From a virus (Duplodnaviria > Caudoviricetes), in IMG/VR virus record IMGVR_UViG_3300011962_000024, positions 18,466-82,465 of that record: 64,000 bases of DNA; one strand, written 5' to 3'. Shown here one piece after another: positions 1-64,000 of this stretch. The notes beneath the pieces were generated by a model. It did not search any database, was not told the DNA's origin, and saw only the letters and a list, made by a program, of their open reading frames with translations. Every line of letters begins with the position of its first letter. Within the stretch, counting starts at the first letter, position 1. Both the position numbers and the translations under genes were made by a program.

Positions 1-405
1 TTGAGGTGGACGTAATCCCCAGCCCGATTGACCCGACTCGCGCGTCTCAGCGACAAAACGCACCTTGCCATTCCAGCATGCAGAGATTTCACGCGAGTGA
101 GCCGTCGGACCTACCGCCGCTCGATGTTTATGGAACTCGTCAAGCAGCCGATGACGAGCCCAACTGAACTTGCCGTCACTCTCGAGTAGTACTCCGTCCA
201 CACCCTCCGGCAGCTGCACATCCTTGCGGGAGGTGACAATTACCCGCTCTTCATTATCGAAGCGTCTCAATGGCTGCTTGATCTTCGCCGACACGTTGAT
301 TGAGGTTTCGACGACGAGTGAGACCTGGAGCGCCGGACGGATCTGATGCCGAACAGCACCAATCGAATATCGCTCTTCAAAAATAAGTGCGGGTAGCGTG
401 AACAT
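1..405 (-). CDS. 5' part of a putative DEAD/DEAH-box (SF2) helicase, cut by window edge
   Basis: Hand translation from ATG at 405 (AAGGA upstream) is open for 135 codons to base 1 and ends ...WGLRPPQ, a Q-motif-like string. Not in the ORF track. Confidence 0.55.
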   Translation of the reverse strand, partial: MFTLPALIFEERYSIGAVRHQIRPALQVSLVVETSINVSAKIKQPLRRFDNEERVIVTSRKDVQLPEGVDGVLLESDGKFSWARHRLLDEFHKHRAAVGPTAHSREISACWNGKVRFVAETRESGQSGWGLRPPQ

Positions 406-463
406 ATACCGTCATCCTTGGTAGGTCAGATGCCCATCAACGCTTCGATGAGGCTATCGAAAC

Positions 464-712
464 TTAACCGAGATCTCGCTGCGCTATCCTGCCCCGGATC
501 CACTCTTGAACTTCGCTTTCAACCCAGCCAACACTCCGACCAACCAGGGGAACTGGTTTTGGGAATCCCCCCTCACCAGTGAGCTCTTTACGCCCAATAC
601 CAGGCGTTGCATGAGGTGCTAACTGACTCCAGCCGACTGCCGCCACTTCACGCTCGCGAAAGGCATCGTAAAGGCTTCCAGATTCGCCACGCACCATCCA
701 CATTCGACTCAT
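464..712 (-). pseudogene. Chimeric remnant: Mrr-like restriction protein N-terminus fused to AlpA C-terminus
   Basis: MWMVRGESGSLYDAFREREVAAVGW resembles Mrr-associated N-termini; FPKPVPLVGRSVGWVESEVQEWI is the AlpA C-terminal half. Confidence 0.65.
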
Positions 713-735
713 GTCTTCTCCTGCGGAATAAAAAA

Positions 736-2208
736 TCAGTCAACCACTTCTGATCTAGGCAGACTCAAAGATACCTCTCGAAAAGCAAGCAGTGCCGCTT
801 CGAGATGCTCAATGATCTCCTGCTGGAGAACATCCGGTGGCGGCAGATCTTCAAGGTTGTCCAGGCTGTCGTCCTTGAGCCAAAAGATGTCGAGACTGGC
901 CTTGTCGCGCGCCATTAGTTCTTCGTAGCTGAAGAACTTGAACCGATCAGTAGCCACTCGCTCGTGACGATTTTCCGGGTTGTAGCAGGTGATGAAATCC
1001 TGCAAATCGTCCAGCTTGAGCGGGCGCGTCTTCAGAGTGAAGTGCTTATTGGTGCGCAAATCGTAGAACCAGATGCCCTTGGTGTGTGTCTGCCCATCCT
1101 TGGGCTTGGCGTCGAAAAACACCACATTGGCCTTCACGCCCTGGGCGTAGAAGATGCCGGTGGGCAGGCGCAAAATTGTGTGTACATCGCAGTTCAGCAG
1201 AAGCTTGCGCCGAATTTTTTCGCCTGCCCCGCCTTCAAACAGAACGTTATCTGGCAACACCACTGCCGCTTTACCGTCCACCTTAAGCATGCTGACGATA
1301 TGTTGCAGAAAGTTGAGCTGCTTGTTCGACGTGGTTTCCCAGAAATCCTGCCGCTCGTAAGTCAGCGCTTCCTTATCTTCATCGCCCTCTTCATTGGTGA
1401 TGGTCATGCTGCTCTTCTTGCCGAAGGGCGGGTTGGCCAGCACGTAATCCACCTTGCGTTTGGGCTCGGAGATCAGGGCATCAGAACGCTCAACAGAAGG
1501 CTCCCCGTACAGTTCACCAATGTTGTGCAGGAACAGGTTCATCAAGCACATGCGGCGAGTGTTCGATACGATTTCATTGCCGTGGAAAGTCTGGTCACGC
1601 AGAAATTCTTTCTGGCGTTTGTCCAGCTTGGCACCCGGGCGCGTCAGCCAGTTGTACGCGCCCAGGAAAAAGCCGCCGGTGCCGCAGGCCGGGTCGGCAA
1701 TAGTTTTCATCGGTTCGGGCCGCACGCAGGCAACCATGGCATCAATCAGCACGCGTGGCGTGAAATACTGGCCAGCACCGCTCTTGGTGTCTTCGGCGTT
1801 CTTCTGCAACAGACCTTCGTACAGATCACCCTTGGTATCGGCATCCAGGCTGATCCAGCTTTCGGCATCAATTAATTGCACAAGGCGGGAGAGTTTTGCC
1901 GGGTCCTGAATTTTATTTTGTGCCTTGAAGAAGATGGCGCCTAGCATACCCGGCTCGTTGCCCAGCTTGTGCAGTGTGGCCAGGTAATGAGCCTCCAGCG
2001 GCTCGCCGACCTTGGAAGTCAGGCTCGCCCAGTCATAGCCCTTGGGGATGTGGGTGTCCCGGTTGTAAGGCTCCTGCGCATATTCATGCGCCAGCTTTAA
2101 AAACAGCAGGTAGGTGAGTTGTTCAAGGTAGTCTCCGTAGCCCACGCCGTCGTCGCGCAGGGTGTTACAGAAGTTCCAGACTTTCTGGACAAGGGTACTT
2201 GTGTTCAT
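736..2208 (-). CDS. hsdM: Type I RM N6-adenine methyltransferase subunit M
   Basis: Motif I DPACGTGGF, motif IV NPPF, typical N-terminus (VQKVWNFCNTLRDDGVGYGDYLEQLTYLLFLK). Confidence 0.95.
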   Translation of the reverse strand: MNTSTLVQKVWNFCNTLRDDGVGYGDYLEQLTYLLFLKLAHEYAQEPYNRDTHIPKGYDWASLTSKVGEPLEAHYLATLHKLGNEPGMLGAIFFKAQNKIQDPAKLSRLVQLIDAESWISLDADTKGDLYEGLLQKNAEDTKSGAGQYFTPRVLIDAMVACVRPEPMKTIADPACGTGGFFLGAYNWLTRPGAKLDKRQKEFLRDQTFHGNEIVSNTRRMCLMNLFLHNIGELYGEPSVERSDALISEPKRKVDYVLANPPFGKKSSMTITNEEGDEDKEALTYERQDFWETTSNKQLNFLQHIVSMLKVDGKAAVVLPDNVLFEGGAGEKIRRKLLLNCDVHTILRLPTGIFYAQGVKANVVFFDAKPKDGQTHTKGIWFYDLRTNKHFTLKTRPLKLDDLQDFITCYNPENRHERVATDRFKFFSYEELMARDKASLDIFWLKDDSLDNLEDLPPPDVLQQEIIEHLEAALLAFREVSLSLPRSEVVD

Positions 2209-2209
2209 C

Positions 2210-3022
2210 TCAGGCCTCTAAGAGCTCTTGTATCCACGGATGGGCTTCGCTTCGCTGCCCCCGCAGAAGAAAATGCATATCGCCGCTATAAGGTGAATCA
2301 CGGTCAATTGCGCGCCGCAGTCGCGCTGCTACCGCCTTGAAGTCGCCCACACGATTTGGATCGTGTGTGGCCAGATCAAACAAGCGTTTCCCTTCATCCA
2401 CGTCCGCCATCAACTGAACTGCCGCTGTGTGGCGTCGCTTGCATGTCGGCTCGTAGTGCAAGTGATAGATCTCGATGGACTCTTCAGCCCGCCGCCGGGA
2501 GGTAGGATCAGTACTGGTCGCGCACGGTTGACCGTTCTCTTGATGACAGCCGAGTAGGCGCCAGTCGGATATTTCACAAGGGTCGAGCAGCATTGGCTGC
2601 TCCGCCGCCACTGGCCCGGCCGCGTAAACACGCTGGGCTTCATTGACCAAAGGAAAACGATCCGCCTTGCCGCCCGCGGTGCCTCCCTCCTGATCTTTGC
2701 GCCGGCTGTTGCAGTAGGTACAGGCATAGCGAAAGTTACTTTCGTCAAAGGTCAGCCAACGGTAGCCAGCGTGCGGGTTGGCCGCATCGCTGACACAGTT
2801 CTTTGGCCGAAAGTGATCAACGGCGTTGTCCGACCGATCCACGTGTGTTTCGCAGTACCAGCATTTGTCATGTAAAAGGCTGGCTAGCCCATCTTTGAGT
2901 TCGCGCCAGACAACACCGTGGTCATTCGGGTCAGCGCCGTTTGCAACAGCCTGCGATGCCGTTTGTGCACGCTGGTTCCAGCCCGTAGGTTTGACCAGCT
3001 TTGAGCGGTCAACGTACCTCAT
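2210..3022 (-). CDS. HNH endonuclease, PtuB/retron-effector-like
   Basis: CWYCE...VDHFRPK...NFRYACTYCN zinc/HNH pattern; ATGA overlap with the upstream ATPase. Confidence 0.85.
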   Translation of the reverse strand: MRYVDRSKLVKPTGWNQRAQTASQAVANGADPNDHGVVWRELKDGLASLLHDKCWYCETHVDRSDNAVDHFRPKNCVSDAANPHAGYRWLTFDESNFRYACTYCNSRRKDQEGGTAGGKADRFPLVNEAQRVYAAGPVAAEQPMLLDPCEISDWRLLGCHQENGQPCATSTDPTSRRRAEESIEIYHLHYEPTCKRRHTAAVQLMADVDEGKRLFDLATHDPNRVGDFKAVAARLRRAIDRDSPYSGDMHFLLRGQRSEAHPWIQELLEA

Positions 3023-4767
3023 GGAGCATCCTCTTTAGAGGCCTCGGGCTTATCAGCCAATAGTTCGGCAATCAAACGCTTGGCCAATGCCTCTCGCTCA
3101 GCGCGCGGCATCTGCACCACTTTCTTCGCCAAGGCCACAGGCTGCTCGGTTTCAAACTGCTGAACAAGCAGCGCATTCCGCAAACGTAGGTAACGCGAAT
3201 ACTCGTCGTCCGGATGGAAAAAACGGAATCCAAGGCGGTCTAGCTGCGCGTTGATGCGATCCAGATCTTGCTGCTCTTGGTCTGCCAGGGTCTCCTTGGC
3301 AGCAAAAGCACGCTGAGCCTCCAACAGTTCTTGTGTTGGCAGATCAAGGGAAGACGCAATGCCAAACATGTCGCTGGTGACAATGGCTGCATAGCCCATT
3401 CCGCGCGGCGCCATTTCCGGATAACACGCCACAATCTGACGCTGTCCATCCTTCTTGGTCATCCGCAGAATCTGCACCTGTTCGCGATCCAGTTCTGCAA
3501 TGGCCAGCGGGTTATGAGTGGTGAGCAGGATATGGCTGGTTTCTTCCTGCTTTGTGCCGCTGGCGATGAACTGCTTCAAGTACGAAATGTAGTCAACACT
3601 CCACCTTGGATTCAAATGCGTGTCCGGCTCATCCAGCAAAAAAAGGCTTTCATCCTCGGCGGTAAAGCGCAGCAGGCCCAACACGGTCAGCAATTGCTGC
3701 TCACCCTCGCTCAGTTCTCGGAACGTAACGCTGCCATCGTTTTTCTTCAGGCGCACACGGATGCGCACCTCCTCGATCAACTCTGAAACGTAGGTGCTCT
3801 CCAAGTCTCGGAAAAATTGTGCCGGCTGCTGCTCCCCAACCAGGCGCCGAAGGGCCCCAATATCCTTGACGTACAAATACTGGAACTCTGTTGTCTCCTT
3901 GTTCCAAAGCGTAACTTGCTTGTCCCGCCTTACCCTGATAGGGGCTAAAGAAATGCTTTGCAGGCGATCGAGGAATGTCTGAACAACTCCTTTTGCCCCC
4001 CAAAACCTTTCGTCACCAGCGCCATCAACCTTCTTATTCCCGCGTCGCTTGCTCCAACCAGGCTGTTTCAAAACAAAGAGAACTGACTCGACCCCTTCGT
4101 CAGGATCAATGCCCATATTGTTCTCCAGAAGCTCTCGAACTTCTGGAGACTGCTTAATCATGAAGGCCAGCAACACGAATTGGCTGTGGACAGGCATTGC
4201 ATAGAACAGTCGCTTCAATCCGGGGTCTTCACCGTTGCGCAGCTTACTGTCGTAGTTCTCGAGGTAAGGCCGAAATACCTCGTGCATGCGCGGGCTCTCG
4301 CCCGAGTAGTAGCTAAACACGTAGCGTGGCAGGTACTCACTGTCCGCATTCAAGAAAGCCGTGAGTTTGATGGCATTGCCACGCAAGGCCGACAACGGCT
4401 GCTCGATGTCGATGATTGGGATCAGAATGCCTTCACCACGGGCTTGCGCATCCGTCGCAACGTGAATGGTGAAAGGCTCTTTCTCACGATCCGGATCGGC
4501 ATCAATGTGAATGTGCCGCAGATTCTCGCCCGCCCCCATGCGATAGGCCAGTTGGAAGGCGAAACCGGGAGTGCGCTTCTTGGCGATCAGGTCGCGGAAG
4601 ATAATGGCTAACGCTTCCAACACGTTGGACTTGCCGGTGCCGTTCCAGCCGATTACCACTGTCACCCAGTGATCCTGATCGAAGTCGATGGTGACGTTTT
4701 TCAGGTTCTTGAATTGGTGCGTTGGGCTGTCCTTGACGCTGCCAATGGTGAGTTTGTCCAAGCGCAT
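3019..4767 (-). CDS. ABC-type (AAA_21-like) ATPase, PtuA-like
   Basis: Walker A GWNGTGKS, signature LSEGE, Walker B LLDEPDTH, H-loop TTHNP, helical C-terminal tail. Confidence 0.88.
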   Translation of the reverse strand: MRLDKLTIGSVKDSPTHQFKNLKNVTIDFDQDHWVTVVIGWNGTGKSNVLEALAIIFRDLIAKKRTPGFAFQLAYRMGAGENLRHIHIDADPDREKEPFTIHVATDAQARGEGILIPIIDIEQPLSALRGNAIKLTAFLNADSEYLPRYVFSYYSGESPRMHEVFRPYLENYDSKLRNGEDPGLKRLFYAMPVHSQFVLLAFMIKQSPEVRELLENNMGIDPDEGVESVLFVLKQPGWSKRRGNKKVDGAGDERFWGAKGVVQTFLDRLQSISLAPIRVRRDKQVTLWNKETTEFQYLYVKDIGALRRLVGEQQPAQFFRDLESTYVSELIEEVRIRVRLKKNDGSVTFRELSEGEQQLLTVLGLLRFTAEDESLFLLDEPDTHLNPRWSVDYISYLKQFIASGTKQEETSHILLTTHNPLAIAELDREQVQILRMTKKDGQRQIVACYPEMAPRGMGYAAIVTSDMFGIASSLDLPTQELLEAQRAFAAKETLADQEQQDLDRINAQLDRLGFRFFHPDDEYSRYLRLRNALLVQQFETEQPVALAKKVVQMPRAEREALAKRLIAELLADKPEASKEDAP

Positions 4768-4769
4768 AC

Positions 4770-6596
4770 TCAGGCCGCCAACAGTTTCAACTTGTCATAC
4801 AGCTTGCGGCCCTGCGCATCGGTCACAGCCTCCACTGCAAGCCGGCCTGCCTTGTCGAGCTTGCGCAGCTCGGCATACAGCTCTTCAATACGTTCGGTCA
4901 GCGCACCGTCGGCTACACCACAGCGGCGGAAGGCTTCTTGCGCCGGTACCCAGCCGCCCGCCTCGGCAAGCACGTCGATCAATCGGCTCACCACGGTGGC
5001 GATCTCCTTTCCTTGTTTGGTTTTACGCGGTTTGGGCTGCTTGGCGCGTTCCGCCCTCTCGGCACGAATGCGCTCCAGCAGTGCACTGGCCGGGGCGTCG
5101 TTCGGGTCTTGAGGCACCAGTTGCCCAGCGAAGGCGGCGCGAAGAATGTTTTGGCGTTGGGCGGTGGATTGTTTGAGAGCAAGATCAATGGCTTTCAATT
5201 GCGCTGCCGCTTCGCTCTCTGCTTCACTCAACAGTTGAATAGCTGAGACTTGTTCGTCCATTGGTGGCACAGGGACCGCGAGATTAATAAATCTTCCAAG
5301 GCTAACCTTTTTCTGTGCAACACCTTGTGTCATTGGCCTGATCTGGCTCTTACCAATTTCAGAGTTAATAGCAGCCTTTAAGAACCCGGCAATCATCAAG
5401 TTTGGTTCACAACGAATCTTTATACAGTCGGCGGTAATTACAGCTGGCGGCTGATTTTCAGGATATACATCCGCGTCACCAGGTGGCTCACCCATTTTAG
5501 TTACCAAAACATCACCAGACTGGATGCGATGAGCATTCAATTCCTCGGCTTTTTCCGGCGTCACGTACTTTGTGTATTCGCCTCCGTAGTTACCACTTCG
5601 AATATTCCGCACAAATACAAGTGGGACGCCCGAGTCACGATAATCAGGAACCTTAAGATTACTGCCAAAGGGGCCAATGGCGAGGCTGTATCTTTCATCT
5701 GAGGAAATCTGCGCCACACTCGCCCACGCCCACCCTTCCGGCAGTTCGGGCAAATCGGTGGTGTCAGGCAGCACCGGCTCGGGGTATTTCTTCTGCCAGT
5801 CCTTGGGCGGTGTTTTGCCTTGCCCCTTGAACCGGGCGAGCTGCCTGGCCTCCCAGCGGACGCGGCGCTCGATAAGGATGCGCGCCAGCAGTTGAGCGCC
5901 GGTTTCGGATGGCGGGTTTTTGATCCGCCATTCGGCAGTAAGCGCTCCCTCCACGGCGGATTTCAGCAGCGATTGCCGGTATTGCTCCAGCTTATTCTGC
6001 GCGGCCTTTAGTTCTGCCACTCCGGCATCAAGGTCAGAAAGCAGCTCTTCGAGCTTGGCGACGATACGGGTTTGTTCCGTAGCGGGGGGGAGGAGGAATG
6101 GGATGGTTTTAGCCAGATTCTTTGAAGAAATGCTGGCTTGATTCACGTGGTTGGTACAACGATGCTTCATGTACCCTGCCATCCACAGAAAATGCAATTG
6201 CCGGGCGACAAAGACGGAGTTCACCCCATCCTCAGGGCGAATGCGGGTCATGTGATTAGAGAAGGCAAAGCCGCCTTCACGAGCAGAAACTACCGCAGTC
6301 TTGCCAACTAACTCGGCAGAGTTTGTATTGTTGAATAAGACGTCACCCTGGCGAAGTTCAATGCCATGGCTCTCGGCCACTGACTTGACAACTTTCAGAT
6401 CGATCTGACCATCACGGTCGACATTCATAGGTCGAAGGTGTGGTACTCCGGCACCAGCGGAGTTGTGTTTTCCGCTGGCAAAGCCAGGACTCACATCCGC
6501 TGATACTTCTTCCAGAGACACAAGACTCCAACTCAATGGCAGAGTGATATTGGCAAAGGGATAGCTCTGCATTGCGACGTCGCTAAACTCACTCAC
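4770..6596 (-). CDS. hsdS: Type I RM specificity subunit S with C-terminal extension
   Basis: Two TRD-plus-helix repeats (PPATEQTRIVAKLEEL; PPMDEQ), LPELPEGW spacer, QDPNDAPASALLERI, then ~80 extra residues. Confidence 0.92.
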   Translation of the reverse strand: MSEFSDVAMQSYPFANITLPLSWSLVSLEEVSADVSPGFASGKHNSAGAGVPHLRPMNVDRDGQIDLKVVKSVAESHGIELRQGDVLFNNTNSAELVGKTAVVSAREGGFAFSNHMTRIRPEDGVNSVFVARQLHFLWMAGYMKHRCTNHVNQASISSKNLAKTIPFLLPPATEQTRIVAKLEELLSDLDAGVAELKAAQNKLEQYRQSLLKSAVEGALTAEWRIKNPPSETGAQLLARILIERRVRWEARQLARFKGQGKTPPKDWQKKYPEPVLPDTTDLPELPEGWAWASVAQISSDERYSLAIGPFGSNLKVPDYRDSGVPLVFVRNIRSGNYGGEYTKYVTPEKAEELNAHRIQSGDVLVTKMGEPPGDADVYPENQPPAVITADCIKIRCEPNLMIAGFLKAAINSEIGKSQIRPMTQGVAQKKVSLGRFINLAVPVPPMDEQVSAIQLLSEAESEAAAQLKAIDLALKQSTAQRQNILRAAFAGQLVPQDPNDAPASALLERIRAERAERAKQPKPRKTKQGKEIATVVSRLIDVLAEAGGWVPAQEAFRRCGVADGALTERIEELYAELRKLDKAGRLAVEAVTDAQGRKLYDKLKLLAA

Positions 6597-9373
6597 GCCA
6601 CCAAGTCCTCATTCAATTCATTCATCAGCGTATCCAGTTCCTTGCCGAACAGGCCCCAGGCTTTCTGCAAACCACCGTTATCGGCCAGTTCGGCGTAATC
6701 AAAATCGTCGCGGCTAATGCTGCAACTGCTGGCAATATGCTCTTTCATCAGGCGCAGCCATTCAGTCTGCTCCGGTGTGAACGCGGTGCCGCGCAGGGCA
6801 TTGTGGCGGAAGATCCAAGCTTGGAAACGTTTGTCCACTTCGTCAGCAAAGGGCTTGAGTTCGCCATCCAACCCCAGCGCAAAGCGCACCAAAGACACCA
6901 GGTCAGTCAACTGCCGTTTGCGGTCTACGCCTTTCACGGCCGAGGTCTGCACCCGGGCATAGGCGCCCCAAAGTCGCTCGGTAGTGAGCATCAATGGCGG
7001 TTTGCTCAGGTGTGCGTGGAGGTCTTCCAGCATGTCAAAGGTAAGCGCACGGCGTTGGTAGGGCTGTTGGTAGAAAAAGCCCAGCGCGGCGATTTCATCC
7101 TTGTGCTGAGCGATGTAGTCGGCAAAGGTCTGAATCACCGCCTTGGCCTGCGTTTCGGCCTGCTCACTGAACCCGCTGAAGGTGACCTGATCGAGGTTGA
7201 TGTGGTCGATGAGCTGCTCGCGCTCGCGGCGGGCGCTTTCGATTTCGTCGCGCAGTTCCGGCTTGTCGAAGGGCGCGCAGGCAGCAGCAACGCGCTCAGC
7301 TCGGGCGGCTTCAATCTCTTCGAGCAGCAAGGTGTCCTCAGAGCGCGTGATGCCTTTGGCCTCGGCCGTGACTAGCGCAGCTTGCACGATAGCGTCCGGG
7401 TCCAGCGCAGCGATCAGACCTTTGCCGAGTTCACCTATTGAAATGCCACCGCTGACCTTCTCGATGCGCGCCTGTGCTTTGTCGTCCAGCTGCTTGGCCA
7501 GTCGCACAAGTCGGTTGGCGAGCGAGAGCACGGTGTCGTCGTCGCGACTACCCATGGCCACGCCTTGCAGCAGGTTCTTGAGAGCCATGCCGGGCTTTTT
7601 CTCCAGCGGGCGGCTTTCGGTCTTGAGGCTTTTTTCCACGCCCACGGCGTCGATTAGGACGAAGCGGGTCTTGGCACCATCAGCGCTGTTGTTGACACGC
7701 TTCAGGCTTTCGCCATCGAGGCTGCGCACACCACGCCCCTTCATCTGCTCGTAGTAACCCTTGCTGCGCACGTCACGTATAAATAGCAGCACTTCAAGCG
7801 GCTTCACGTCGGTGCCGGTGGCAATCATGTCCACGGTGACGGCAATGCGTGGGTTGTAGTCGTTGCGAAAGCTGCTGAGAATGCTGTCGGCGTCTTCCTC
7901 AGCACGGTAGGTGACCTTTTTGCAGAAAGCGTTGCCCTGGCCATAGACCTCGCGCACGATGTTGATAATGTCGTCAGCGTGACTGTCGGTTTTGGCGAAA
8001 ATCAAGGTCTTGGGTGTTTCTTTGCGCGCCGGGAAAATCTGCGTTTCCACCGCCGTTTTCATCGCCTGAATCACCTGGCGGATCTGGCTCACGTTGACCA
8101 CCGATTTATCCAGCTCCTTGCCGGTGTAGGTGGTGTCTTCTTCGGTTTCACCCCAACGTTTTTTGCGGGTGGCGCGGTCGCGATGGTCTACCCACTCTCT
8201 GGCCTTCAGCTCCGCGCCCTTCTGGGTGATCTCGGTTTCGATCTCAAACACGTCGTAGCCTACGTTGACACCATCCGCCACGGACTGCTCGTAGGTGTAC
8301 TCAGCAACGATGTTTTCGTTGAAGAAGCCGAAGGTGCGTTTGTCAGGTGTGGCGGTGAGGCCTATCAGGCTGGCATCGAAGTAATCGAGCACCTGCTTCC
8401 ACAGGTTATAGATGCTGCGGTGGCATTCATCGATGATGATGAAGTCGAAGGTTTCCACCGGTACGGCCGGGTTGTAGCGGACGAGCTTTTCCTGCTTGGC
8501 GGTTTGCTGTACTTCGTTGAGCGAAACATCCTCGGCAGTCTCATCAATCGGCTCACCACTCAGAATCGAGTACATGCGCTGGATGGTGCTGATGCACACC
8601 TGCGAATGCGGATCGATGTTGGGCGAAGCCAGCCGCTGCACGTTGTAAAGCTCGGTGAACTTGCGGCCATCATCTGGAGGCGTATAGGCCATGAATTCCT
8701 GATGCGCCTGCTTGCCGAGGTTGCGGGTGTCGACCAGGAACAGGATACGCTTGGCGCCACCGAACTTGAGTAGGCGATAGACCGAGGTGATGGCGGTGAA
8801 GGTTTTGCCCGCGCCGGTGGCCATGTGCACCAAGGCGCGAGGTTTGTTCAATGCCAGTGATTTTTCCAGCCCGGTAACGGCGCTGATCTGACAGTCGCGC
8901 AGATTTCTTTCTGGCAGCGCTGGCATTTGTTCGGCCAGACGGCGACGGAGGGTTTCAGGCTGCGCCAGCCAGGCGGCCAGCGTTTCCGGCTTGAAGAAGT
9001 GGAAAATTTCGCGCGAACGCGGCACCGGATCGGCGCCATCGGTAAAGCGGATGATCTTGCCGGTTGCTTCAAACAGGAAACGCAGCGGTGCATTGTCTTG
9101 GCGATGTTTGAGCGTGGCGTTGGCGTAGCGCTCCGTTTGGCTTTCTGTGACTGTGAGGTTTACCCCCGCGCCGTCTTTTTTAGCTTCAATTACCCCGACG
9201 GTGACCCTGTCAACAAAAAGCACGTAATCCGCAGGCCCAGAATCAGTCGGAAACTCTCGCACAGCCACGCCACGAGCCGCACCTAAATTAAGCTGCTTCA
9301 CGTCCTGGATGACCCAGCCAGCTTGTTGTAGCTTCTGGTCAATCTGCTGACGTGCTTCTGATTCTGGCGTCAT
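6593..9373 (-). CDS. hsdR: Type I RM restriction subunit R (EcoEI-R-C type C-terminus)
   Basis: PD-(D/E)xK motif PADYVLF...IEAKK, Walker A MATGAGKT, DECH box, GLTATP. Confidence 0.95.
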   Translation of the reverse strand: MTPESEARQQIDQKLQQAGWVIQDVKQLNLGAARGVAVREFPTDSGPADYVLFVDRVTVGVIEAKKDGAGVNLTVTESQTERYANATLKHRQDNAPLRFLFEATGKIIRFTDGADPVPRSREIFHFFKPETLAAWLAQPETLRRRLAEQMPALPERNLRDCQISAVTGLEKSLALNKPRALVHMATGAGKTFTAITSVYRLLKFGGAKRILFLVDTRNLGKQAHQEFMAYTPPDDGRKFTELYNVQRLASPNIDPHSQVCISTIQRMYSILSGEPIDETAEDVSLNEVQQTAKQEKLVRYNPAVPVETFDFIIIDECHRSIYNLWKQVLDYFDASLIGLTATPDKRTFGFFNENIVAEYTYEQSVADGVNVGYDVFEIETEITQKGAELKAREWVDHRDRATRKKRWGETEEDTTYTGKELDKSVVNVSQIRQVIQAMKTAVETQIFPARKETPKTLIFAKTDSHADDIINIVREVYGQGNAFCKKVTYRAEEDADSILSSFRNDYNPRIAVTVDMIATGTDVKPLEVLLFIRDVRSKGYYEQMKGRGVRSLDGESLKRVNNSADGAKTRFVLIDAVGVEKSLKTESRPLEKKPGMALKNLLQGVAMGSRDDDTVLSLANRLVRLAKQLDDKAQARIEKVSGGISIGELGKGLIAALDPDAIVQAALVTAEAKGITRSEDTLLLEEIEAARAERVAAACAPFDKPELRDEIESARREREQLIDHINLDQVTFSGFSEQAETQAKAVIQTFADYIAQHKDEIAALGFFYQQPYQRRALTFDMLEDLHAHLSKPPLMLTTERLWGAYARVQTSAVKGVDRKRQLTDLVSLVRFALGLDGELKPFADEVDKRFQAWIFRHNALRGTAFTPEQTEWLRLMKEHIASSCSISRDDFDYAELADNGGLQKAWGLFGKELDTLMNELNEDLVA

Positions 9374-9461
9374 GATGCTGATCCCTGCGATTTTGGCTCC
9401 GTTGAGCTAAAACTTTGGACTTGCTGCGACTCACATGACAGGAGTCTGAGCAAGCCAGTCT

Positions 9462-9483
9462 CAATTGGCAACCAATTGGCAAC
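9462..9483. repeat. Tandem 11-bp repeat CAATTGGCAAC x2, integrase arm-site-like
   Basis: Read directly at 9462-9472 and 9473-9483; role is inferred. Confidence 0.55.
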
Positions 9484-9526
9484 CAGAAAGCGACTTTTTA
9501 GGGGCCCCAGAAAAATCAGCGAGCAT

Positions 9527-9563
9527 AAAAAAATCCAGTCACCGCTAAGTGACTGGATTTTTT
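9527..9563. terminator. Bidirectional intrinsic terminator beyond the tRNA 3' end copy
   Basis: AAAAAAATCCAGTCAC-CGCTAA-GTGACTGGATTTTTT. Confidence 0.85.
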
Positions 9564-9570
9564 AGGGTTT

Positions 9571-9618
9571 TTTGGTCGGGACGGAGTGATTCGAACACTC
9601 GACCCCTTGCACCCCATG
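9571..9618 (-). repeat. att core, 48-bp copy of the tRNA-Pro 3' portion
   Basis: Identical to 63924-63971. Confidence 0.97.
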
Positions 9619-9636
9619 TTAGACGCTTAACGCACC

Positions 9637-9649
9637 TAACCCTTTGATA
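9637..9649 (-). promoter_or_regulatory. IHF consensus site in the att arm
   Basis: Minus strand TATCAAAGGGTTA matches WATCAANNNNTTR, 18 bp from the core. Confidence 0.65.
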
Positions 9650-9735
9650 TGAAAGAAAATCACCCACTATTCAGGCAGGCAAAATAAGCGCTTTTCTGTG
9701 GTTTTGCAAACGCTAGAATGCGGCCTCCAGCGGAG

Positions 9736-9745
9736 GTTTTGCGCA
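9736..9745 (+). repeat. Integrase arm-type site GTTTTGCGCA
   Basis: Same decamer recurs three times at 63838-63869. Confidence 0.65.
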
Positions 9746-9837
9746 CCCTTCTCGCCCGTTCTGGGCAAACCAATCCCCCTCAGCAACAAGACGACACCCG
9801 CCGCGGTCAACTCCTCATCGAGCAACGAGGCGCAATC

Positions 9838-10545
9838 ATGTGCGGACGAATCACACAATACAGCCAGGCGGTGGAATACCTGTTCGCCCTGGACCCTCAG
9901 CTGTCGCTGGTCGGCGGTTTCGACCCTTCTCCGATTGGCCGCTACAACGTGCCGCCGCAATCAAGGGTTCAGCTGCTGCACCAGGACGAGGACGGGCTTC
10001 GCATGGAGCCGGTCAAATGGGGATACGCCCCGTTCTGGGCGCAGGGGAAGAGACCGCCGGCGATCAACGCCAGGGTAGAGACGGCGGCCACCTCGAAGTT
10101 CTTCCGCGACATCTGGCAGACCGGCCGGGCAATCGTGCCGGCTAATGGCTGGTACGAATGGAAGAAGGACGAGGCCAGCCCGAAGATCAAGCAGCCATAC
10201 CTGATCAAGCGCCGCGGAGACGAGCCACTATTCATGGCAGCGCTCGGGCAGTTTCAGCGGGGCGGCGCGTTGGAGCCGAGAGATAGCGACGGGTTCGTCA
10301 TCATCACGGCTTCCAGCGACGTCGGGATGATCGACATCCACGACCGCAGGCCGGTGGTGCTGTCGGCTGAATGCGCGCTGCACTGGCTGGATCCGGAACT
10401 GTCGCCCGATGAGGCCGAAGAGATCGCCCTGGAACATAGCCTTGGTGTCGAAGAGTTCGAGTGGTATCCGGTTGATCGTGCCGTAGGCAACGTCCGCAAC
10501 GACGGCGCACACCTGATCAAGCGAATCAGCGATCCGGTGCTGTAG
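9838..10545 (+). CDS. SOS response-associated peptidase (SRAP/YedK/HMCES family)
   Basis: True start MCGR at 9838 gives the catalytic Cys2; WG, INAR(V)ET, HDRRP and VGNVRN motifs. Confidence 0.92.
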   Translation: MCGRITQYSQAVEYLFALDPQLSLVGGFDPSPIGRYNVPPQSRVQLLHQDEDGLRMEPVKWGYAPFWAQGKRPPAINARVETAATSKFFRDIWQTGRAIVPANGWYEWKKDEASPKIKQPYLIKRRGDEPLFMAALGQFQRGGALEPRDSDGFVIITASSDVGMIDIHDRRPVVLSAECALHWLDPELSPDEAEEIALEHSLGVEEFEWYPVDRAVGNVRNDGAHLIKRISDPVL

Positions 10546-10589
10546 CCGCTGATCTGCAAGCGCTGGATCGGATTTCATCCGCCCTGATA

Positions 10590-10605
10590 CTGTGCGCATA
10601 TACAG
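10590..10605. promoter_or_regulatory. LexA (SOS) box
   Basis: CTGTGCGCATATACAG = CTG-N10-CAG, 14 bp upstream of the ATG at 10620. Confidence 0.75.
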
Positions 10606-10619
10606 CTTCAGAGCAGATC

Positions 10620-11360
10620 ATGGGCCGCGACATTTCCCTAACTCACCGCACCAGCATGACCGTCGAGCGCTGGCATCGCATGCTGGACGACACCGCAGAG
10701 CGCCGCGACCTTCCCCGGCTCTACCGGGATAACCTTGTCGAGGCCGCCGACGACATGCTTCGAGCGGGAATCATCGACCCGCTGGAGCACTTCGACCTGC
10801 TAGAGCTCGCCAATGCCGCGTACTCGCACGAGATCGAAGAGCAGATTTACCTGTACCGGTACTTCCAGCATTCGGGGAATTACGACGTGGGCAGCGGCGA
10901 TCAGCGCATAGGTATTCTGCGCGGCGTTCGCTTCTACCTTGAAACGGACAAATTCCGCGAACCGGCCAGCTACCACGCACGGATCGAAGGCACCGACAAA
11001 GGGCTTGAGCTCATTACCAACTACGGCGGCCGATCGCTTGGTGTGATCGATGGGAAGCTGCTGGTGACGCCGAGCGGCGAGCGGCACGAGCTGTTCGAGA
11101 CCTCAAGAATGCAGGCTGGCGTAGACGCTCGGTCAATCAGTGACCCCGACCTGTACCGCACCGCGCTTGATGCTATTCAGCTCGCCAAGGAAGAAGGCGA
11201 TACAAAGCGGCATGTGGCGCTGATGATGCGGGCCAGCGTGTCGATCTTCATGCCCTGCCCCGCCTGCGATGACTCGTTCAGCATGCGAGAGGACTGCGGA
11301 GAATGTGAAGGCCAGGGGTTCGTGCGCGAGACGCCGGAGCGGTTCAGGTGGAGGAGTTAG
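10620..11360 (+). CDS. Hypothetical SOS-regulated protein with C-terminal CxxC-CxxC zinc finger
   Basis: 246-aa ORF; CPACDDSFSMREDCGECEGQG at the end. Confidence 0.75.
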   Translation: MGRDISLTHRTSMTVERWHRMLDDTAERRDLPRLYRDNLVEAADDMLRAGIIDPLEHFDLLELANAAYSHEIEEQIYLYRYFQHSGNYDVGSGDQRIGILRGVRFYLETDKFREPASYHARIEGTDKGLELITNYGGRSLGVIDGKLLVTPSGERHELFETSRMQAGVDARSISDPDLYRTALDAIQLAKEEGDTKRHVALMMRASVSIFMPCPACDDSFSMREDCGECEGQGFVRETPERFRWRS

Positions 11361-11581
11361 CGGCAGGCCTTATTTCCGGCCAGCAGCTCCTCCCGCGCCA
11401 CATTGACCGCGGGCGGCGCAGTGATGCAAACGACGATCTGTCCGGGCGTTCTGCTGTGGTAAAGCTCAAGCCAGATGCCCTCCTTTGTGAGCTGGCGATA
11501 CAGCTCGGCCGCATCCGCTTCGGTTTCTGGCGACAGGAATATCCGCTGGCCTGGCTTGCGATTGATGATGAGATTTCCCAT
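11357..11581 (-). CDS. CsrA/Rsm-family RNA-binding protein with RsmN/RsmF-type topology
   Basis: GNLIINRKPGQRIFLS, internal helix AAELYRQLTKEG, ITAPPAVNVAREEL with the conserved Arg; strong RBS AAGGAGG. Confidence 0.78.
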   Translation of the reverse strand: MGNLIINRKPGQRIFLSPETEADAAELYRQLTKEGIWLELYHSRTPGQIVVCITAPPAVNVAREELLAGNKACR

Positions 11582-11642
11582 ATATCCTCCTTGATTGGGT
11601 CACCTCACCATACAGGTGGAGGCGAAGGCGCGCTGTGACCTC

Positions 11643-12164
11643 CTACTCGCCTGCCCTCACCGCCCGGGCCCACTCCTGCAGATACGCCAGCTTCTCCCGG
11701 TCGCTGATCATTCCGCCTCGGATATTCCAAACAGCTGATCCAGCTGCTGCACTGAGTTCGACGCTGGTTGCATCGCCCAGGCCGCCGGCGCCGGTGGTGG
11801 CGGACACTGTGGCGTCGGCGCGGGCAACTCGGACTTCGATACGCAGCCGGCGGCGCTCATCGTCAGCAGCAGAATACTCGCGGCGCAGGCGGTCATTTTC
11901 AGCTTGTGCATGAGTCAGTTTCTCGGTTGAGGTTGTGTCGAGGATGCCCAGGCGCGCTTCCAGCACCAGGCGATCGGTCTGCTGCTTGAGGATCACCGCG
12001 GCGTTTGCTTGGGCGGTCAGGCGCAGCTGTTCCGACCATTCCGCTTTGGTGCTGGCGAGATCCTGCTGGACATCCATGACGCGGCACTGCTGCACCCCGC
12101 CGATCAGCAGCGCGGCCAGCAGCCACCACGCCGAGGACGGGACCAGCTTCAGCCAGGCGGTCAT
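11643..12164 (-). CDS. Rz-like inner-membrane spanin
   Basis: N-terminal TM helix plus coiled coil, follows the endolysin, contains a nested lipoprotein ORF. Confidence 0.85.
   Translation of the reverse strand: MTAWLKLVPSSAWWLLAALLIGGVQQCRVMDVQQDLASTKAEWSEQLRLTAQANAAVILKQQTDRLVLEARLGILDTTSTEKLTHAQAENDRLRREYSAADDERRRLRIEVRVARADATVSATTGAGGLGDATSVELSAAAGSAVWNIRGGMISDREKLAYLQEWARAVRAGE
11708..11911 (-). CDS. Rz1-like outer-membrane spanin (nested)
   Basis: Lipobox-like AAGC and Pro-rich CPPPPAPAAWAM, embedded in another frame of Rz; start may be 11896. Confidence 0.75.
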   Translation of the reverse strand: MHKLKMTACAASILLLTMSAAGCVSKSELPAPTPQCPPPPAPAAWAMQPASNSVQQLDQLFGISEAE

Positions 12165-63925: not shown

Positions 63926-64000
63926 TGGTCGGGACGGAGTGATTCGAACACTCGACCCCTTGCACCCCATGCAAGTGCGCTACCAGGCTGCGCTACGCCC
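63926..64000 (-). tRNA. tRNA-Pro(GGG), integration target; 5'-most ~2 nt lie outside the window
   Basis: Anticodon arm CTTGC-ATGGGGT-GCAAG, T-arm GAGTG-TTCGAAT-CACTC, encoded CCA. Confidence 0.95.

What the first reader, a model, noticed from the sequence alone, without database searches (positions are those of the whole stretch)
2210..4767. PtuAB-like ATPase + HNH pair embedded and translationally coupled inside a Type I RM operon
Seen: order hsdR-hsdS-ATPase-HNH-hsdM with overlaps or gaps of at most 2 nt at every junction, intact catalytic motifs, and no reverse transcriptase nearby. Known: ABC-ATPase/HNH pairs are the effectors of Septu and Ec78-type retrons; PrrC (in the EcoprrI locus) and PARIS respond to phage anti-restriction proteins. 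Inference: a guard system in which the RM complex replaces the retron as sensor/inhibitor and the nuclease causes abortive infection, possibly via tRNA cleavage, when RM is blocked.
Basis: partly seen in the sequence, partly recalled or inferred. Interest (0 to 1): 0.82.

Follow-up and report, generated by a model that had tools for sequence, protein, structure and literature searches.

The report
Septu nuclease pair wired to HsdS
A genuine Septu anti-phage ATPase/nuclease pair sits inside a type I restriction operon, and in every relative examined it follows a specificity gene (hsdS) with an extra small domain, or is fused to hsdS outright, so the two defence systems probably work as one unit.

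Summary
Observation confirmed. On the minus strand the order is hsdR-hsdS-ptuA-ptuB-hsdM, with junctions of -4, +2, -4 and +1 nt. The motifs are intact, and there is no reverse transcriptase in the 82-kb record.

The pair is a true Septu PtuA/PtuB:
- Both match PADLOC PtuA/PtuB models over their full length.
- The best PDB fold matches of the PtuB model are all PtuB chains.

It belongs to a special branch of Septu:
- All 50 assessable related loci, from five phyla and two type I families, have ptuA directly after hsdS.
- That HsdS always ends in a ~76-aa acidic winged-helix tail. The tail was found only at HsdS C-termini, and only next to ptuA wherever I checked the context.
- At least 217 protein clusters of a sister clade are natural HsdS::PtuA fusions.
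- HsdR is missing or decayed in about 20 of 46 loci, while hsdM, hsdS, ptuA and ptuB stay intact.

The conserved unit is therefore methyltransferase core plus PtuAB, not the whole restriction enzyme.

The trigger (anti-restriction proteins) and the target (tRNA) remain untested. A rival reading has the same complex act as an HsdR-independent restriction nuclease.

Embedding in type I operons is known in general, and related operons carry other cargo in this slot. The scan has met this cassette before on other DNA (28 notes).

The parts
6593..9373 (-). hsdR, type I restriction subunit (926 aa; EcoEI/type IB-like C-terminal domain)
   Evidence: Pfam ResIII, Helicase_C, EcoEI_R_C and HSDR_N; PADLOC REase_I. 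Intact here, but missing or decayed in many related loci.
5001..6596 (-). hsdS core: two target-recognition domains, the conserved helices and a basic linker
   Evidence: Pfam Methylase_S, 2 stretches; PADLOC Specificity_I at 336 bits. The recognition domains are replaced between near-identical loci: identity to L001/L002 breaks at 5195-5719 and 6074-6590.
4773..5000 (-). C-terminal winged-helix tail of HsdS (76 aa), preceded by a basic linker
   Evidence: AlphaFold2 model with pLDDT 82 and topology H-E-H-H-E-E. Foldseek matches are all winged-helix domains, none at E<=0.001. Conserved in 48 loci at 66% mean column identity. Net acidic, with helix 3 acidic in all 48. Only 113 clusters among 1.84 billion representatives, 112 of them with the match at or within a few residues of the C-terminus (one, P0218, is a false positive).
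3019..4767 (-). ptuA, Septu ABC/SMC-type ATPase (582 aa)
   Evidence: PADLOC PDLC00302 at 1111.6 bits, full length. ABC motifs invariant. Weak PDB sequence matches to retron PtuA, AriA and E. coli Septu PtuA.
2210..3022 (-). ptuB, Septu HNH nuclease (270 aa)
   Evidence: PADLOC PDLC00330 at 359 bits plus about 35 other PtuB models. AlphaFold2 pLDDT 93.6. The top 11 PDB fold matches are all PtuB chains of retrons Ec78/Ec83/I-A and E. coli Septu 8eea. The CxxC...DH...N...CxxCN residues are invariant.
736..2208 (-). hsdM, type I N6-adenine methyltransferase (490 aa)
   Evidence: Pfam N6_Mtase at 225 bits and HsdM_N; PADLOC MTase_I at 655 bits; NPPF at 259 and DPACGTG at 172.
464..712 (-). alpA-like small regulator just downstream of hsdM, at the edge of the block shared with relatives
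   Evidence: Pfam Phage_AlpA, E 4e-10. DNA homology with L001, L002 and L040 runs from about 577 to 9618.
9528..9563 (.). 15-bp-stem hairpin with T/A runs on both sides, between the tRNA remnant and the hsdR leader
   Evidence: Terminator-like site; sequence read.
9573..9604 (-). 32-nt copy of the 3' end of tRNA-Pro(GGG): the prophage attachment repeat that marks the outer edge of the R-M/Septu island
   Evidence: Exact second copy at 63926-63957 inside tRNA-Pro; 0 expected by chance.

Best explanation
The two genes are a real Septu pair: PtuA is an ABC/SMC-type ATPase and PtuB is an HNH nuclease. They belong to a branch that does not stand alone but is built onto the type I methyltransferase core. 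HsdS in this branch ends in a basic linker plus a small acidic winged-helix domain. I infer that this tail docks PtuA, so that HsdM2-HsdS carries PtuA-PtuB as a second effector beside HsdR, or without HsdR. The DNA-recognition complex would then play the part that reverse transcriptase and msDNA play in Septu-type retrons: it holds and gates the ATP-controlled nuclease. My preferred trigger is inferred only from precedent. Occupation or blockage of the HsdM-HsdS DNA groove by phage anti-restriction proteins (DNA mimics such as Ocr or ArdA) switches PtuAB on, giving an abortive-infection-type cleavage of tRNA or DNA, as with PrrC and Ronin. Shown here: the identity of the parts, the invariant hsdS-ptuA linkage, the HsdS tail that goes with it, the fusion proteins, and the dispensability of HsdR. 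Inferred: binding, gating, trigger and target. I put physical and functional coupling at about 0.75, and the whole statement including the guard trigger at about 0.4.
For: Identity: PADLOC PtuA and PtuB models match over their full length, and the PtuB model matches only PtuB chains in the PDB. Linkage: in 52 loci with PtuA at 59-98% identity, from Pseudomonadota, Bacteroidota, Myxococcota, Planctomycetota and Acidobacteriota, all 50 assessable loci have hsdS ending -11 to +10 nt from the ptuA start. This holds in two layouts with different HsdM families: R-S-A-B-M and (R-)M-S-A-B. The tail: conserved in all 48 readable HsdS ends and winged-helix by AlphaFold2. Its acidic helix 3 fits protein docking better than DNA binding. 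In 1.84 billion representative proteins it occurs in only 113 clusters, in 112 of them at or within a few residues of the C-terminus. Seven matches were followed to their contigs: six lie at the end of an hsdS (three on contigs cut at the 5' end) with an ABC-ATPase or ptuA gene next, also the most divergent ones; the seventh (P0218) is a repeat-protein false positive. In 400 sampled gammaproteobacterial species, the tail and this PtuA occur in the same 3 genomes. The same HsdM family occurs in 31 genomes, 29 if two unpublished ones are left out. So the tail goes with PtuAB, not with the R-M family. Fusions: at least 217 clusters of 1040-1210-aa HsdS::PtuA proteins, each followed by ptuB and flanked by hsdM in the two loci inspected. 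HsdR is optional: it is full-length in 24 of 32 assessable loci of layout 1 and present in 2 of 14 of layout 2. Three HsdR-less genomes hold no EcoEI_R_C-type HsdR anywhere. Plasmid relatives are M-S-A-B without R. Precedents for the guard reading: PrrC occupies the same hsdS-hsdM slot in an HsdR-HsdS-PrrC-HsdM locus (PMC11555353). Ronin is HsdMS plus a toxin, fired by Ocr/ArdA (bioRxiv 10.1101/2023.04.06.535777). PARIS AriA, an Ocr sensor, is among the closest solved ATPases. Retron I-A complexes sequester PtuAB (abstracts).
Against: The slot upstream of hsdM in this R-M family is a general cargo site: SoFic, AbiEii, DarG, AbiD, a CBASS cyclase and others were found in 20 of 21 related loci. 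Embedding alone therefore proves nothing. A covalent HsdS::PtuA fusion is awkward for a model in which the nuclease fires by release. In HsdR-less loci the HsdS recognition domains keep turning over (21-46% identity where HsdM is 50-83% and PtuA 57-85%) and HsdM keeps NPPF. A pure decoy for DNA mimics would not need either. The target (tRNA or DNA) is unknown, and published Septu systems differ on it (PMC11555353, PMC13096335).
Confidence: 0.4

Rival explanations
1. The physical complex is the same, but the logic differs: PtuAB is an HsdR-independent restriction effector. HsdM2-HsdS reads methylation at its target sites. When it meets unmodified foreign DNA, it licenses the tethered or fused ABC ATPase/HNH nuclease to cut or nick that DNA. 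Where HsdR is also present, as in this window, the operon has two nuclease arms on one recognition core.
For: HsdR is absent or decayed in about 20 of 46 loci while S, A, B and M stay intact. No cognate HsdR exists anywhere in three such genomes. The recognition domains keep diversifying in HsdR-less loci and NPPF is kept in every HsdM, as expected if self/non-self marking still matters. HsdS::PtuA single polypeptides resemble recognition-plus-motor fusions. E. coli Septu PtuAB is reported to act on DNA (cited in PMC11555353).
Against: No HNH/ABC-ATPase restriction arm of a type I methyltransferase has been shown. Other Septu and retron PtuAB cleave tRNA-Tyr and act by abortive infection (PMC11555353, PMC13096335). 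Turnover of recognition domains could be a neutral by-product of recombination among hsdS genes. Ronin's HsdM also has an intact NPPF motif, yet the motif is not needed for its function.
Confidence: 0.3
2. PtuAB here is an autonomous Septu system that merely rides in a recombination hot spot of type I operons. It shares transcription with the R-M genes but not mechanism. The HsdS tail has some other role, for example in R-M regulation or in keeping the cassette together.
For: Defence systems embedded in type I R-M, BREX, DISARM and Hma are a described phenomenon, and most embedded systems also work alone (bioRxiv 10.1101/2024.01.29.577857; DarTG2 in PMC12255303). In 20 of 21 related R-M loci the gene just upstream of hsdM is some other cargo. 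PADLOC files the two proteins under ordinary Septu.
Against: It does not explain four things. No member of this PtuA branch was found away from hsdS (50 of 50). The tail is found only with ptuA and is conserved across phyla and across two R-M families. The genes are fused in a sister clade. The S-A-B-M set survives loss of hsdR.
Confidence: 0.2
3. PtuAB acts as an addiction or stabilising module. It punishes loss or imbalance of the methyltransferase (post-segregational killing) and so keeps the mobile island in the genome, with no direct role against phage.
For: The cassette is mobile: it lies on a tRNA-Pro-linked island here, on plasmids and next to integrases. A nuclease gated by the HsdMS complex would fire if the complex decayed.
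Against: Septu and its relatives are experimentally anti-phage (PMC13096335; PMC8565338). Type I systems already have their own control of restriction. Nothing here points to this reading specifically.
Confidence: 0.05

Closest known systems
Septu type I (stand-alone PtuA/PtuB; Doron et al. 2018; E. coli Septu structures 8EE4/8EEA; Septu Ec-B88, PMC13096335)
   Same: The two proteins, gene order and start/stop overlap are the same, as are the ABC-ATPase motifs, the HNH residues and the PtuB fold.
   Different: This branch is only distantly related in sequence to the solved PtuA proteins (E 1e-5 to 1e-11). No solved PtuB is found by sequence. It was never found alone: it always follows, or is fused to, an HsdS with a dedicated tail.
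Septu type II = type I-A retrons (Ec78/Eco7, Ec83): RT-msDNA plus PtuAB
   Same: A PtuAB effector is joined to a third, nucleic-acid-recognising partner encoded just upstream. In retrons that partner holds PtuAB in check.
   Different: There is no reverse transcriptase or ncRNA here. The upstream partner is HsdS/HsdM. In some relatives the partner is covalently fused to PtuA, which retrons do not show.
PrrC in the EcoprrI-type locus (HsdR-HsdS-PrrC-HsdM)
   Same: An ABC-type ATPase nuclease sits in the same slot between hsdS and hsdM and is almost always embedded in type I R-M. It is the model for a guard fired by anti-restriction.
   Different: PrrC is one protein with its own anticodon-nuclease domain. 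Here there are two proteins, with an HNH nuclease, plus an extra HsdS domain. HsdR is often absent in relatives.
Ronin (HsdS + HsdM without HsdR, plus the 61-aa toxin RonA; bioRxiv 10.1101/2023.04.06.535777)
   Same: A type I methyltransferase core is coupled to a toxic effector and can exist without HsdR. [quoted passage not shown]
   Different: The effector is a small membrane protein, not an ATPase/HNH pair. This window keeps an intact HsdR. No dedicated HsdS docking domain is described for Ronin.
PARIS (AriA ABC ATPase + AriB TOPRIM nuclease)
   Same: It pairs a related ABC ATPase (PADLOC AriA E 4e-23; PDB AriA E 8e-7) with a nuclease. It senses the anti-restriction protein Ocr and cleaves tRNA.
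   Different: PARIS is stand-alone, has a TOPRIM rather than an HNH nuclease, and has no link to hsd genes.

Membership tests
Septu (PtuA/PtuB) | PtuA: ABC/SMC-type ATPase matching PtuA profiles over its full length, with Walker A, signature, Walker B and H-loop | tested here: met
   PDLC00302 at 1111.6 bits over residues 1-578, and PDLC00293 at 667 bits. The motifs are invariant in 48 orthologues.
Septu (PtuA/PtuB) | PtuB: HNH nuclease with the PtuB fold, encoded directly after ptuA | tested here: met
   PDLC00330 at 359 bits plus many other PtuB models. The top 11 PDB fold matches are PtuB chains. The two genes overlap by 4 nt, ATGA.
Septu (PtuA/PtuB) | A two-gene system that is sufficient on its own for phage defence | not testable with these tools
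   Comparative data argue against autonomy: the pair is always next to, or fused with, a tail-bearing HsdS. Defence itself needs an experiment.
Type I restriction-modification (EcoEI/type IB-like) | HsdR (SF2 helicase plus nuclease), HsdS with two recognition domains, and HsdM with an N6-adenine methyltransferase domain, all in one operon | tested here: met
   Pfam and PADLOC matches for all three; NPPF and the AdoMet motif in HsdM; all genes in one tightly joined block.
Type I-A retron / Septu type II | Reverse transcriptase and msr/msd ncRNA next to ptuAB | tested here: not met
   No RVT_1 match in the 82-kb record; no Rfam family in 1-12000; the neighbours are hsd genes.
PrrC-type R-M guard | A single PrrC protein (ABC ATPase fused to an anticodon-nuclease domain) between type I genes | tested here: not met
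   The position matches (between hsdS and hsdM). The proteins are PtuA plus a separate HNH PtuB, and no PrrC model is among the 25 best PADLOC matches shown (of 136).
PrrC-type R-M guard | Latent nuclease bound to the R-M enzyme and activated when a phage protein inhibits it | not testable with these tools
   This needs pull-downs and challenge with Ocr, ArdA or Stp.
Ronin | hsdS + hsdM without hsdR, plus the small toxin RonA | tested here: not met
   hsdR is intact here and the effector is PtuAB. About 20 of 46 related loci do lack hsdR, so the layout recurs but the effector differs.
PARIS | AriA ATPase with an AriB TOPRIM nuclease | tested here: not met
   AriA models score far below PtuA models (81 against 1111 bits). 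The partner is an HNH protein, not TOPRIM.

The most novel reading that the evidence does not exclude
HsdM-HsdS(winged helix)-PtuA-PtuB is a distinct class of restriction enzyme. In it, an ABC/SMC-type ATPase and an HNH nuclease replace (or, as in this window, double) HsdR as the motor-nuclease arm of a type I methyltransferase. The arm is recruited through a dedicated HsdS domain or by direct HsdS::PtuA fusion. This would make 'Septu' in this branch a methylation-sensing DNA restriction module rather than an abortive-infection system.
Probability: 0.3. Interest if true: 0.85.

Novelty: new variant of a known kind. Interest (0 to 1): 0.68.

Why it matters
Septu is one of the most widespread anti-phage systems, but what switches stand-alone Septu on is still unclear. 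Type I-A retrons showed that PtuAB can be placed under the control of a nucleic-acid-sensing partner. This branch looks like a second, independent case of that, with the type I methyltransferase core as partner. It comes with natural handles for experiments: a 76-aa docking-like domain to delete, natural HsdS::PtuA fusions, and natural versions with and without HsdR.

Two outcomes are possible, and either would be useful:
- If the complex is a guard, it joins PrrC, Ronin and PARIS as a way bacteria punish anti-restriction, with a different and very common effector.
- If it is an HsdR-independent restriction arm, it is a new kind of restriction enzyme.

Annotation pipelines currently report these loci as two unrelated systems (R-M type I plus Septu). 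They also count the HsdR-less forms as orphan methyltransferases, which probably misdescribes them.

Tried and rejected
I used the genome of locus L001 as the centre instead.
- The control with another PtuA model (PDLC00294) in 300 genomes only hit the same loci again. It gave no baseline for other Septu clades.
- There was no near-identical DNA in E. coli genomes and no PtuA relative in phage records.
- The tail profile did not find the linker of the HsdS::PtuA fusions at E<=0.001. Profile-profile comparison gave only E 8e-4 and probability 24% at the equivalent position. Homology of that linker to the tail is therefore suggestive, not shown.
- Foldseek of the tail gave no match at E<=0.001, only generic winged-helix domains.
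- The apparently free-standing 70-76-aa tail proteins are hsdS genes cut at the 5' end on 1-kb contigs, each followed by ptuA. I rejected them as a stand-alone form.
- P0218 (1338 aa) is a false positive in a repeat protein.
- The direct HsdR-versus-PtuA comparison showed no real similarity.
- The ABC-ATPase classification paper (PMC7544218) is not held, so I cannot exclude that it mentions this association.
- Searches for PtuA+HsdS and for Septu+type I restriction+embedded found no paper describing this cassette.
Full report
**1. What is in the window.**

Five genes lie head to tail on the minus strand:

| Gene | Coordinates | Length |
|---|---|---|
| hsdR | 6593-9373 | 926 aa |
| hsdS | 4770-6596 | 608 aa |
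| ATPase (ptuA) | 3019-4767 | 582 aa |
| HNH gene (ptuB) | 2210-3022 | 270 aa |
| hsdM | 736-2208 | 490 aa |

- The junctions, read from the sequence, are a GTGA overlap, TGA-2 nt-ATG, an ATGA overlap, and TGA-1 nt-ATG.
- Pfam and PADLOC confirm the three hsd genes. HsdR has the EcoEI-type C-terminal domain.
- The consensus scan shows nothing that clearly divides the block: one promoter-like site (inside hsdS) and 16 terminator-like sites, no more than the shuffles give.
- There is no reverse transcriptase in the whole 82-kb record and no Rfam family in 1-12000.

**2. What the pair is.**

- The ATPase matches PADLOC PtuA model PDLC00302 from end to end (1111.6 bits). The HNH protein matches PtuB model PDLC00330 (359 bits) and dozens of other PtuB models.
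- ABC motifs and HNH/zinc-finger residues are invariant in 48 orthologues.
- By sequence, the solved PtuA proteins are only distant relatives (E 1e-5 to 1e-11, C-terminal half only). No solved PtuB is found by sequence.
- An AlphaFold2 model of PtuB (pLDDT 93.6) has as its top 11 PDB matches only PtuB chains, from retrons Ec78, Ec83 and I-A and from E. coli Septu.
- So this is a true member of the Septu family, but from a divergent branch.

**3. The branch is tied to hsdS.**

- A scan of one genome per species returned 52 loci with PtuA at 59-98% identity. They come from Pseudomonadota, Bacteroidota, Myxococcota, Planctomycetota and Acidobacteriota.
- Of the 52, one is a lone PtuA fragment and one contig starts inside ptuA. 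In all 50 others an hsdS reading frame ends -11 to +10 nt from the ptuA start. The gap is exactly 2 nt in 31 of the 47 loci where the whole frame could be read.
- The ptuA/ptuB overlap of 4 nt is kept in 39 of 50.
- There are two layouts. One is hsdR-hsdS-ptuA-ptuB-hsdM, as here, with HsdM at 61-99% identity. The other is (hsdR-)hsdM-hsdS-ptuA-ptuB, with a different HsdM family at about 38% identity.
- The linkage is therefore to hsdS, not to one R-M lineage.
- More distant PtuA relatives on plasmids (36-44% identity) show the same order: hsdM-hsdS-ATPase-next gene in two of the three inspected, and hsdS-ATPase with hsdM downstream in the third. Two of the three HsdS proteins carry a recognisable tail.

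**4. HsdS carries a dedicated domain.**

- After the usual C-terminal helix of HsdS comes a basic linker and a 76-aa segment (window 4773-5000). It is conserved in all 48 readable loci at 66% mean column identity, even where the recognition domains are unrelated.
- AlphaFold2 gives a winged helix with topology H-E-H-H-E-E (pLDDT 82).
- Foldseek returns only winged-helix domains, none at E<=0.001.
- The domain is net acidic, and its third helix is acidic in all 48 copies, while the linker is basic. That fits a protein-docking role better than DNA binding.
- A full HMMER scan of 1.84 billion representative proteins finds the domain in only 113 clusters, in 112 of them at or within a few residues of the C-terminus.
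  - The short "stand-alone" hits are hsdS genes cut by contig ends, each followed by ptuA.
  - The most divergent full-length hits are again followed by an ABC ATPase; where the contig runs on, a gene of about 270-290 aa and hsdM come next.
- In 400 gammaproteobacterial species, the tail (E<1e-10) and this PtuA occur in exactly the same three genomes.
- The same HsdM family occurs in 31 of those genomes. Two of the 31, G301 and G044, are unpublished. Leaving them out, 29 genomes carry the family, and no other claim rests on them.
- So the tail goes with PtuAB, not with the R-M family.

**5. Fusion proteins.**

- Searching for longer relatives of PtuA found at least 217 clusters of 1040-1210-aa proteins. 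Each has HsdS (Methylase_S; PADLOC Specificity_I) at the N-terminus and a full PtuA-type ATPase from about residue 570. They occur in cyanobacteria, Sphingomonas, Brevundimonas, Acidobacteriota and others.
- In the two loci inspected, the fused gene is followed, with a start/stop overlap of 1 or 4 nt, by a PtuB-type gene (PDLC00330 at 242-258 bits). hsdM flanks it on either side, mirroring the two layouts of the unfused branch, and no hsdR is near.
- The linker of the fusions resembles helices 1-3 of the tail only weakly (hhalign E 8e-4, probability 24%).
- A gene fusion of this kind is classical evidence that the two products act together.

**6. HsdR is optional.**

| Layout | Loci with enough flank | HsdR status |
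|---|---|---|
| 1 (R-S-A-B-M) | 32 | 24 with a full-length hsdR just upstream (two with an apparent frameshift); 8 with none or only remnants |
| 2 ((R-)M-S-A-B) | 14 | 2 with hsdR; 12 with none within about 10 kb, and their large neighbouring genes are unrelated |

- Three genomes with HsdR-less loci hold no EcoEI_R_C-type HsdR anywhere. They do hold other type I HsdR genes, in the two assemblies with complete chromosomes more than 1 Mb away, in the third on other contigs.
- Every HsdM keeps NPPF.
- In HsdR-less loci the recognition part of HsdS diverges far faster than the rest. For L014 against L016, the HsdS core is 40% identical, against HsdM 83%, tail 92% and PtuA 83%.
- The conserved unit is hsdM + hsdS-with-tail + ptuA + ptuB.

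**7. Context and the cargo-slot rival.**

- DNA homology with near-identical loci runs only from about 577 to 9618.
- Just beyond it lies a 32-nt copy of the 3' end of tRNA-Pro(GGG). Its exact twin is at 63926-63957, inside the tRNA gene. The roughly 54-kb stretch between them carries lambdoid tail and lysis genes.
- The R-M/Septu island is therefore outside the prophage, on a tRNA-Pro-linked island with an alpA-like gene. It is not phage-borne, although the record is filed as a virus.
- In 21 related R-M loci without ptuAB, the gene just upstream of hsdM is hsdS in only one. In the others it is other cargo: SoFic/Fic, AbiEii, DarG, AbiD, a CBASS cyclase, AAA_13, GIY-YIG and PADLOC candidates.
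- Embedding in type I R-M is a described phenomenon (bioRxiv 10.1101/2024.01.29.577857; PMC12255303). Embedding by itself is therefore ordinary. The tail, the fusions, the invariance and the survival without hsdR are what set this cargo apart.

**8. Mechanism.**

- Shown: the parts, their linkage, and the co-inheritance of the tail.
- Inferred: HsdM2-HsdS carries PtuA-PtuB through the tail, and the state of the recognition complex gates the nuclease.
- For the trigger I prefer the guard model: DNA-mimic anti-restriction proteins occupy HsdMS. The precedents are:
  - PrrC, which sits in the same slot (PMC11555353; PMC12707154);
  - Ronin, which is HsdMS plus a toxin fired by ArdA/Ocr (bioRxiv 10.1101/2023.04.06.535777);
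  - PARIS, whose ATPase is a relative;
  - retron I-A, where a partner sequesters PtuAB.
- The main rival keeps the complex but makes PtuAB an HsdR-independent restriction arm licensed by unmethylated target sites. Continued turnover of the recognition domains, retained NPPF and covalent fusions fit this at least as well.
- My odds:

| Reading | Probability |
|---|---|
| Any physical/functional coupling | about 0.75 |
| - guard trigger | 0.4 |
| - restriction arm | 0.3 |
| Autonomous cargo | 0.2 |
| Addiction module | 0.05 |

- The target (tRNA-Tyr, as in Eco7 and Septu Ec-B88, or DNA, as reported for E. coli Septu) cannot be told from sequence.

**9. Novelty.**

- PADLOC would report this locus as "Septu" plus "R-M type I".
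- The papers I could search describe embedding in general, PrrC, Ronin and retron-Septu. None describes an HsdS docking domain, HsdS::PtuA fusions or an HsdR-less HsdMS-PtuAB cassette. One relevant classification paper is not held.
- The scan itself has met this cassette repeatedly on other DNA: 28 notes in at least 27 genomes. Earlier follow-ups reached the same reading. I reached and tested it independently before reading them.
- I rate it a new variant of a known kind (Septu with a new obligatory partner, parallel to Septu type II), of fairly high interest because it is directly testable.

Noticed in passing
window 9573-9604 and 63926-63957 (tRNA-Pro 63926-64002, minus strand): Exact 32-nt direct repeats of the 3' end of tRNA-Pro(GGG) bracket a roughly 54-kb lambdoid prophage with tail-tip J, Rz lysis and SRAP genes. 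The R-M/Septu island lies just outside this prophage, so the 'virus record' includes host island DNA.
   Followed up: partly
window 6593-9373 (HsdR residues 2-133): The HsdR N-terminus matches PADLOC PtuA model PDLC00302 (profile positions 16-160) at E 1.4e-17, yet BLASTP shows no similarity between HsdR and the window's own PtuA. The likeliest reason is foreign sequence in that profile, but this is unexplained.
   Followed up: partly
loci L013, L017, L019, L022, L024, L025, L027, L034-L036, L038-L040, L052: A second PtuB variant (about 30% identical to the window's) travels with a PtuA whose similarity stops at residue 530. The HsdS tail, HsdR and HsdM in these loci stay 80-98% identical to the window's. 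The PtuA C-terminus and PtuB seem to be exchanged as a module.
   Followed up: partly
loci L012, L026, L036, L039: Extra DNA (about 1.1 to 4.8 kb) lies between ptuB and hsdM, so further cargo can be inserted behind the Septu pair. In L039, about 1.9 kb also separates hsdR from hsdS.
   Followed up: no
loci L062-L087 (related R-M operons without ptuAB): In this R-M family the gene directly upstream of hsdM is nearly always another defence gene: SoFic/Fic, AbiEii, DarG, AbiD, a CBASS cyclase, AAA_13, GIY-YIG or PADLOC candidates PDC-S04/S06/S18.
   Followed up: partly
model of window 4773-5027 (HsdS tail): Among the generic winged-helix matches is the C-terminal winged helix of the cohesin kleisin Scc1 (6qpq_D, TM 0.63-0.65, E 0.026). 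That domain binds the head of an SMC-type ABC ATPase. This is a possible analogy for how the tail could bind PtuA, but the support is weak.
   Followed up: no
loci L004, L006, L011 (remnants); L036, L046 (split matches): hsdR is decaying in several otherwise intact loci. Only 6-28% of HsdR is left in three loci, and two others show apparent frameshifts.
   Followed up: partly
window 9718-10545 (plus strand): An SOS-response-associated peptidase (SRAP) gene lies at the prophage end next to the attachment repeat.
   Followed up: no
locus L094: In another genome the same R-S-A-B-M cassette lies between an Mrr-type restriction gene and an integrase next to smpB. This is a different integration site, showing that the cassette moves between islands.
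   Followed up: no
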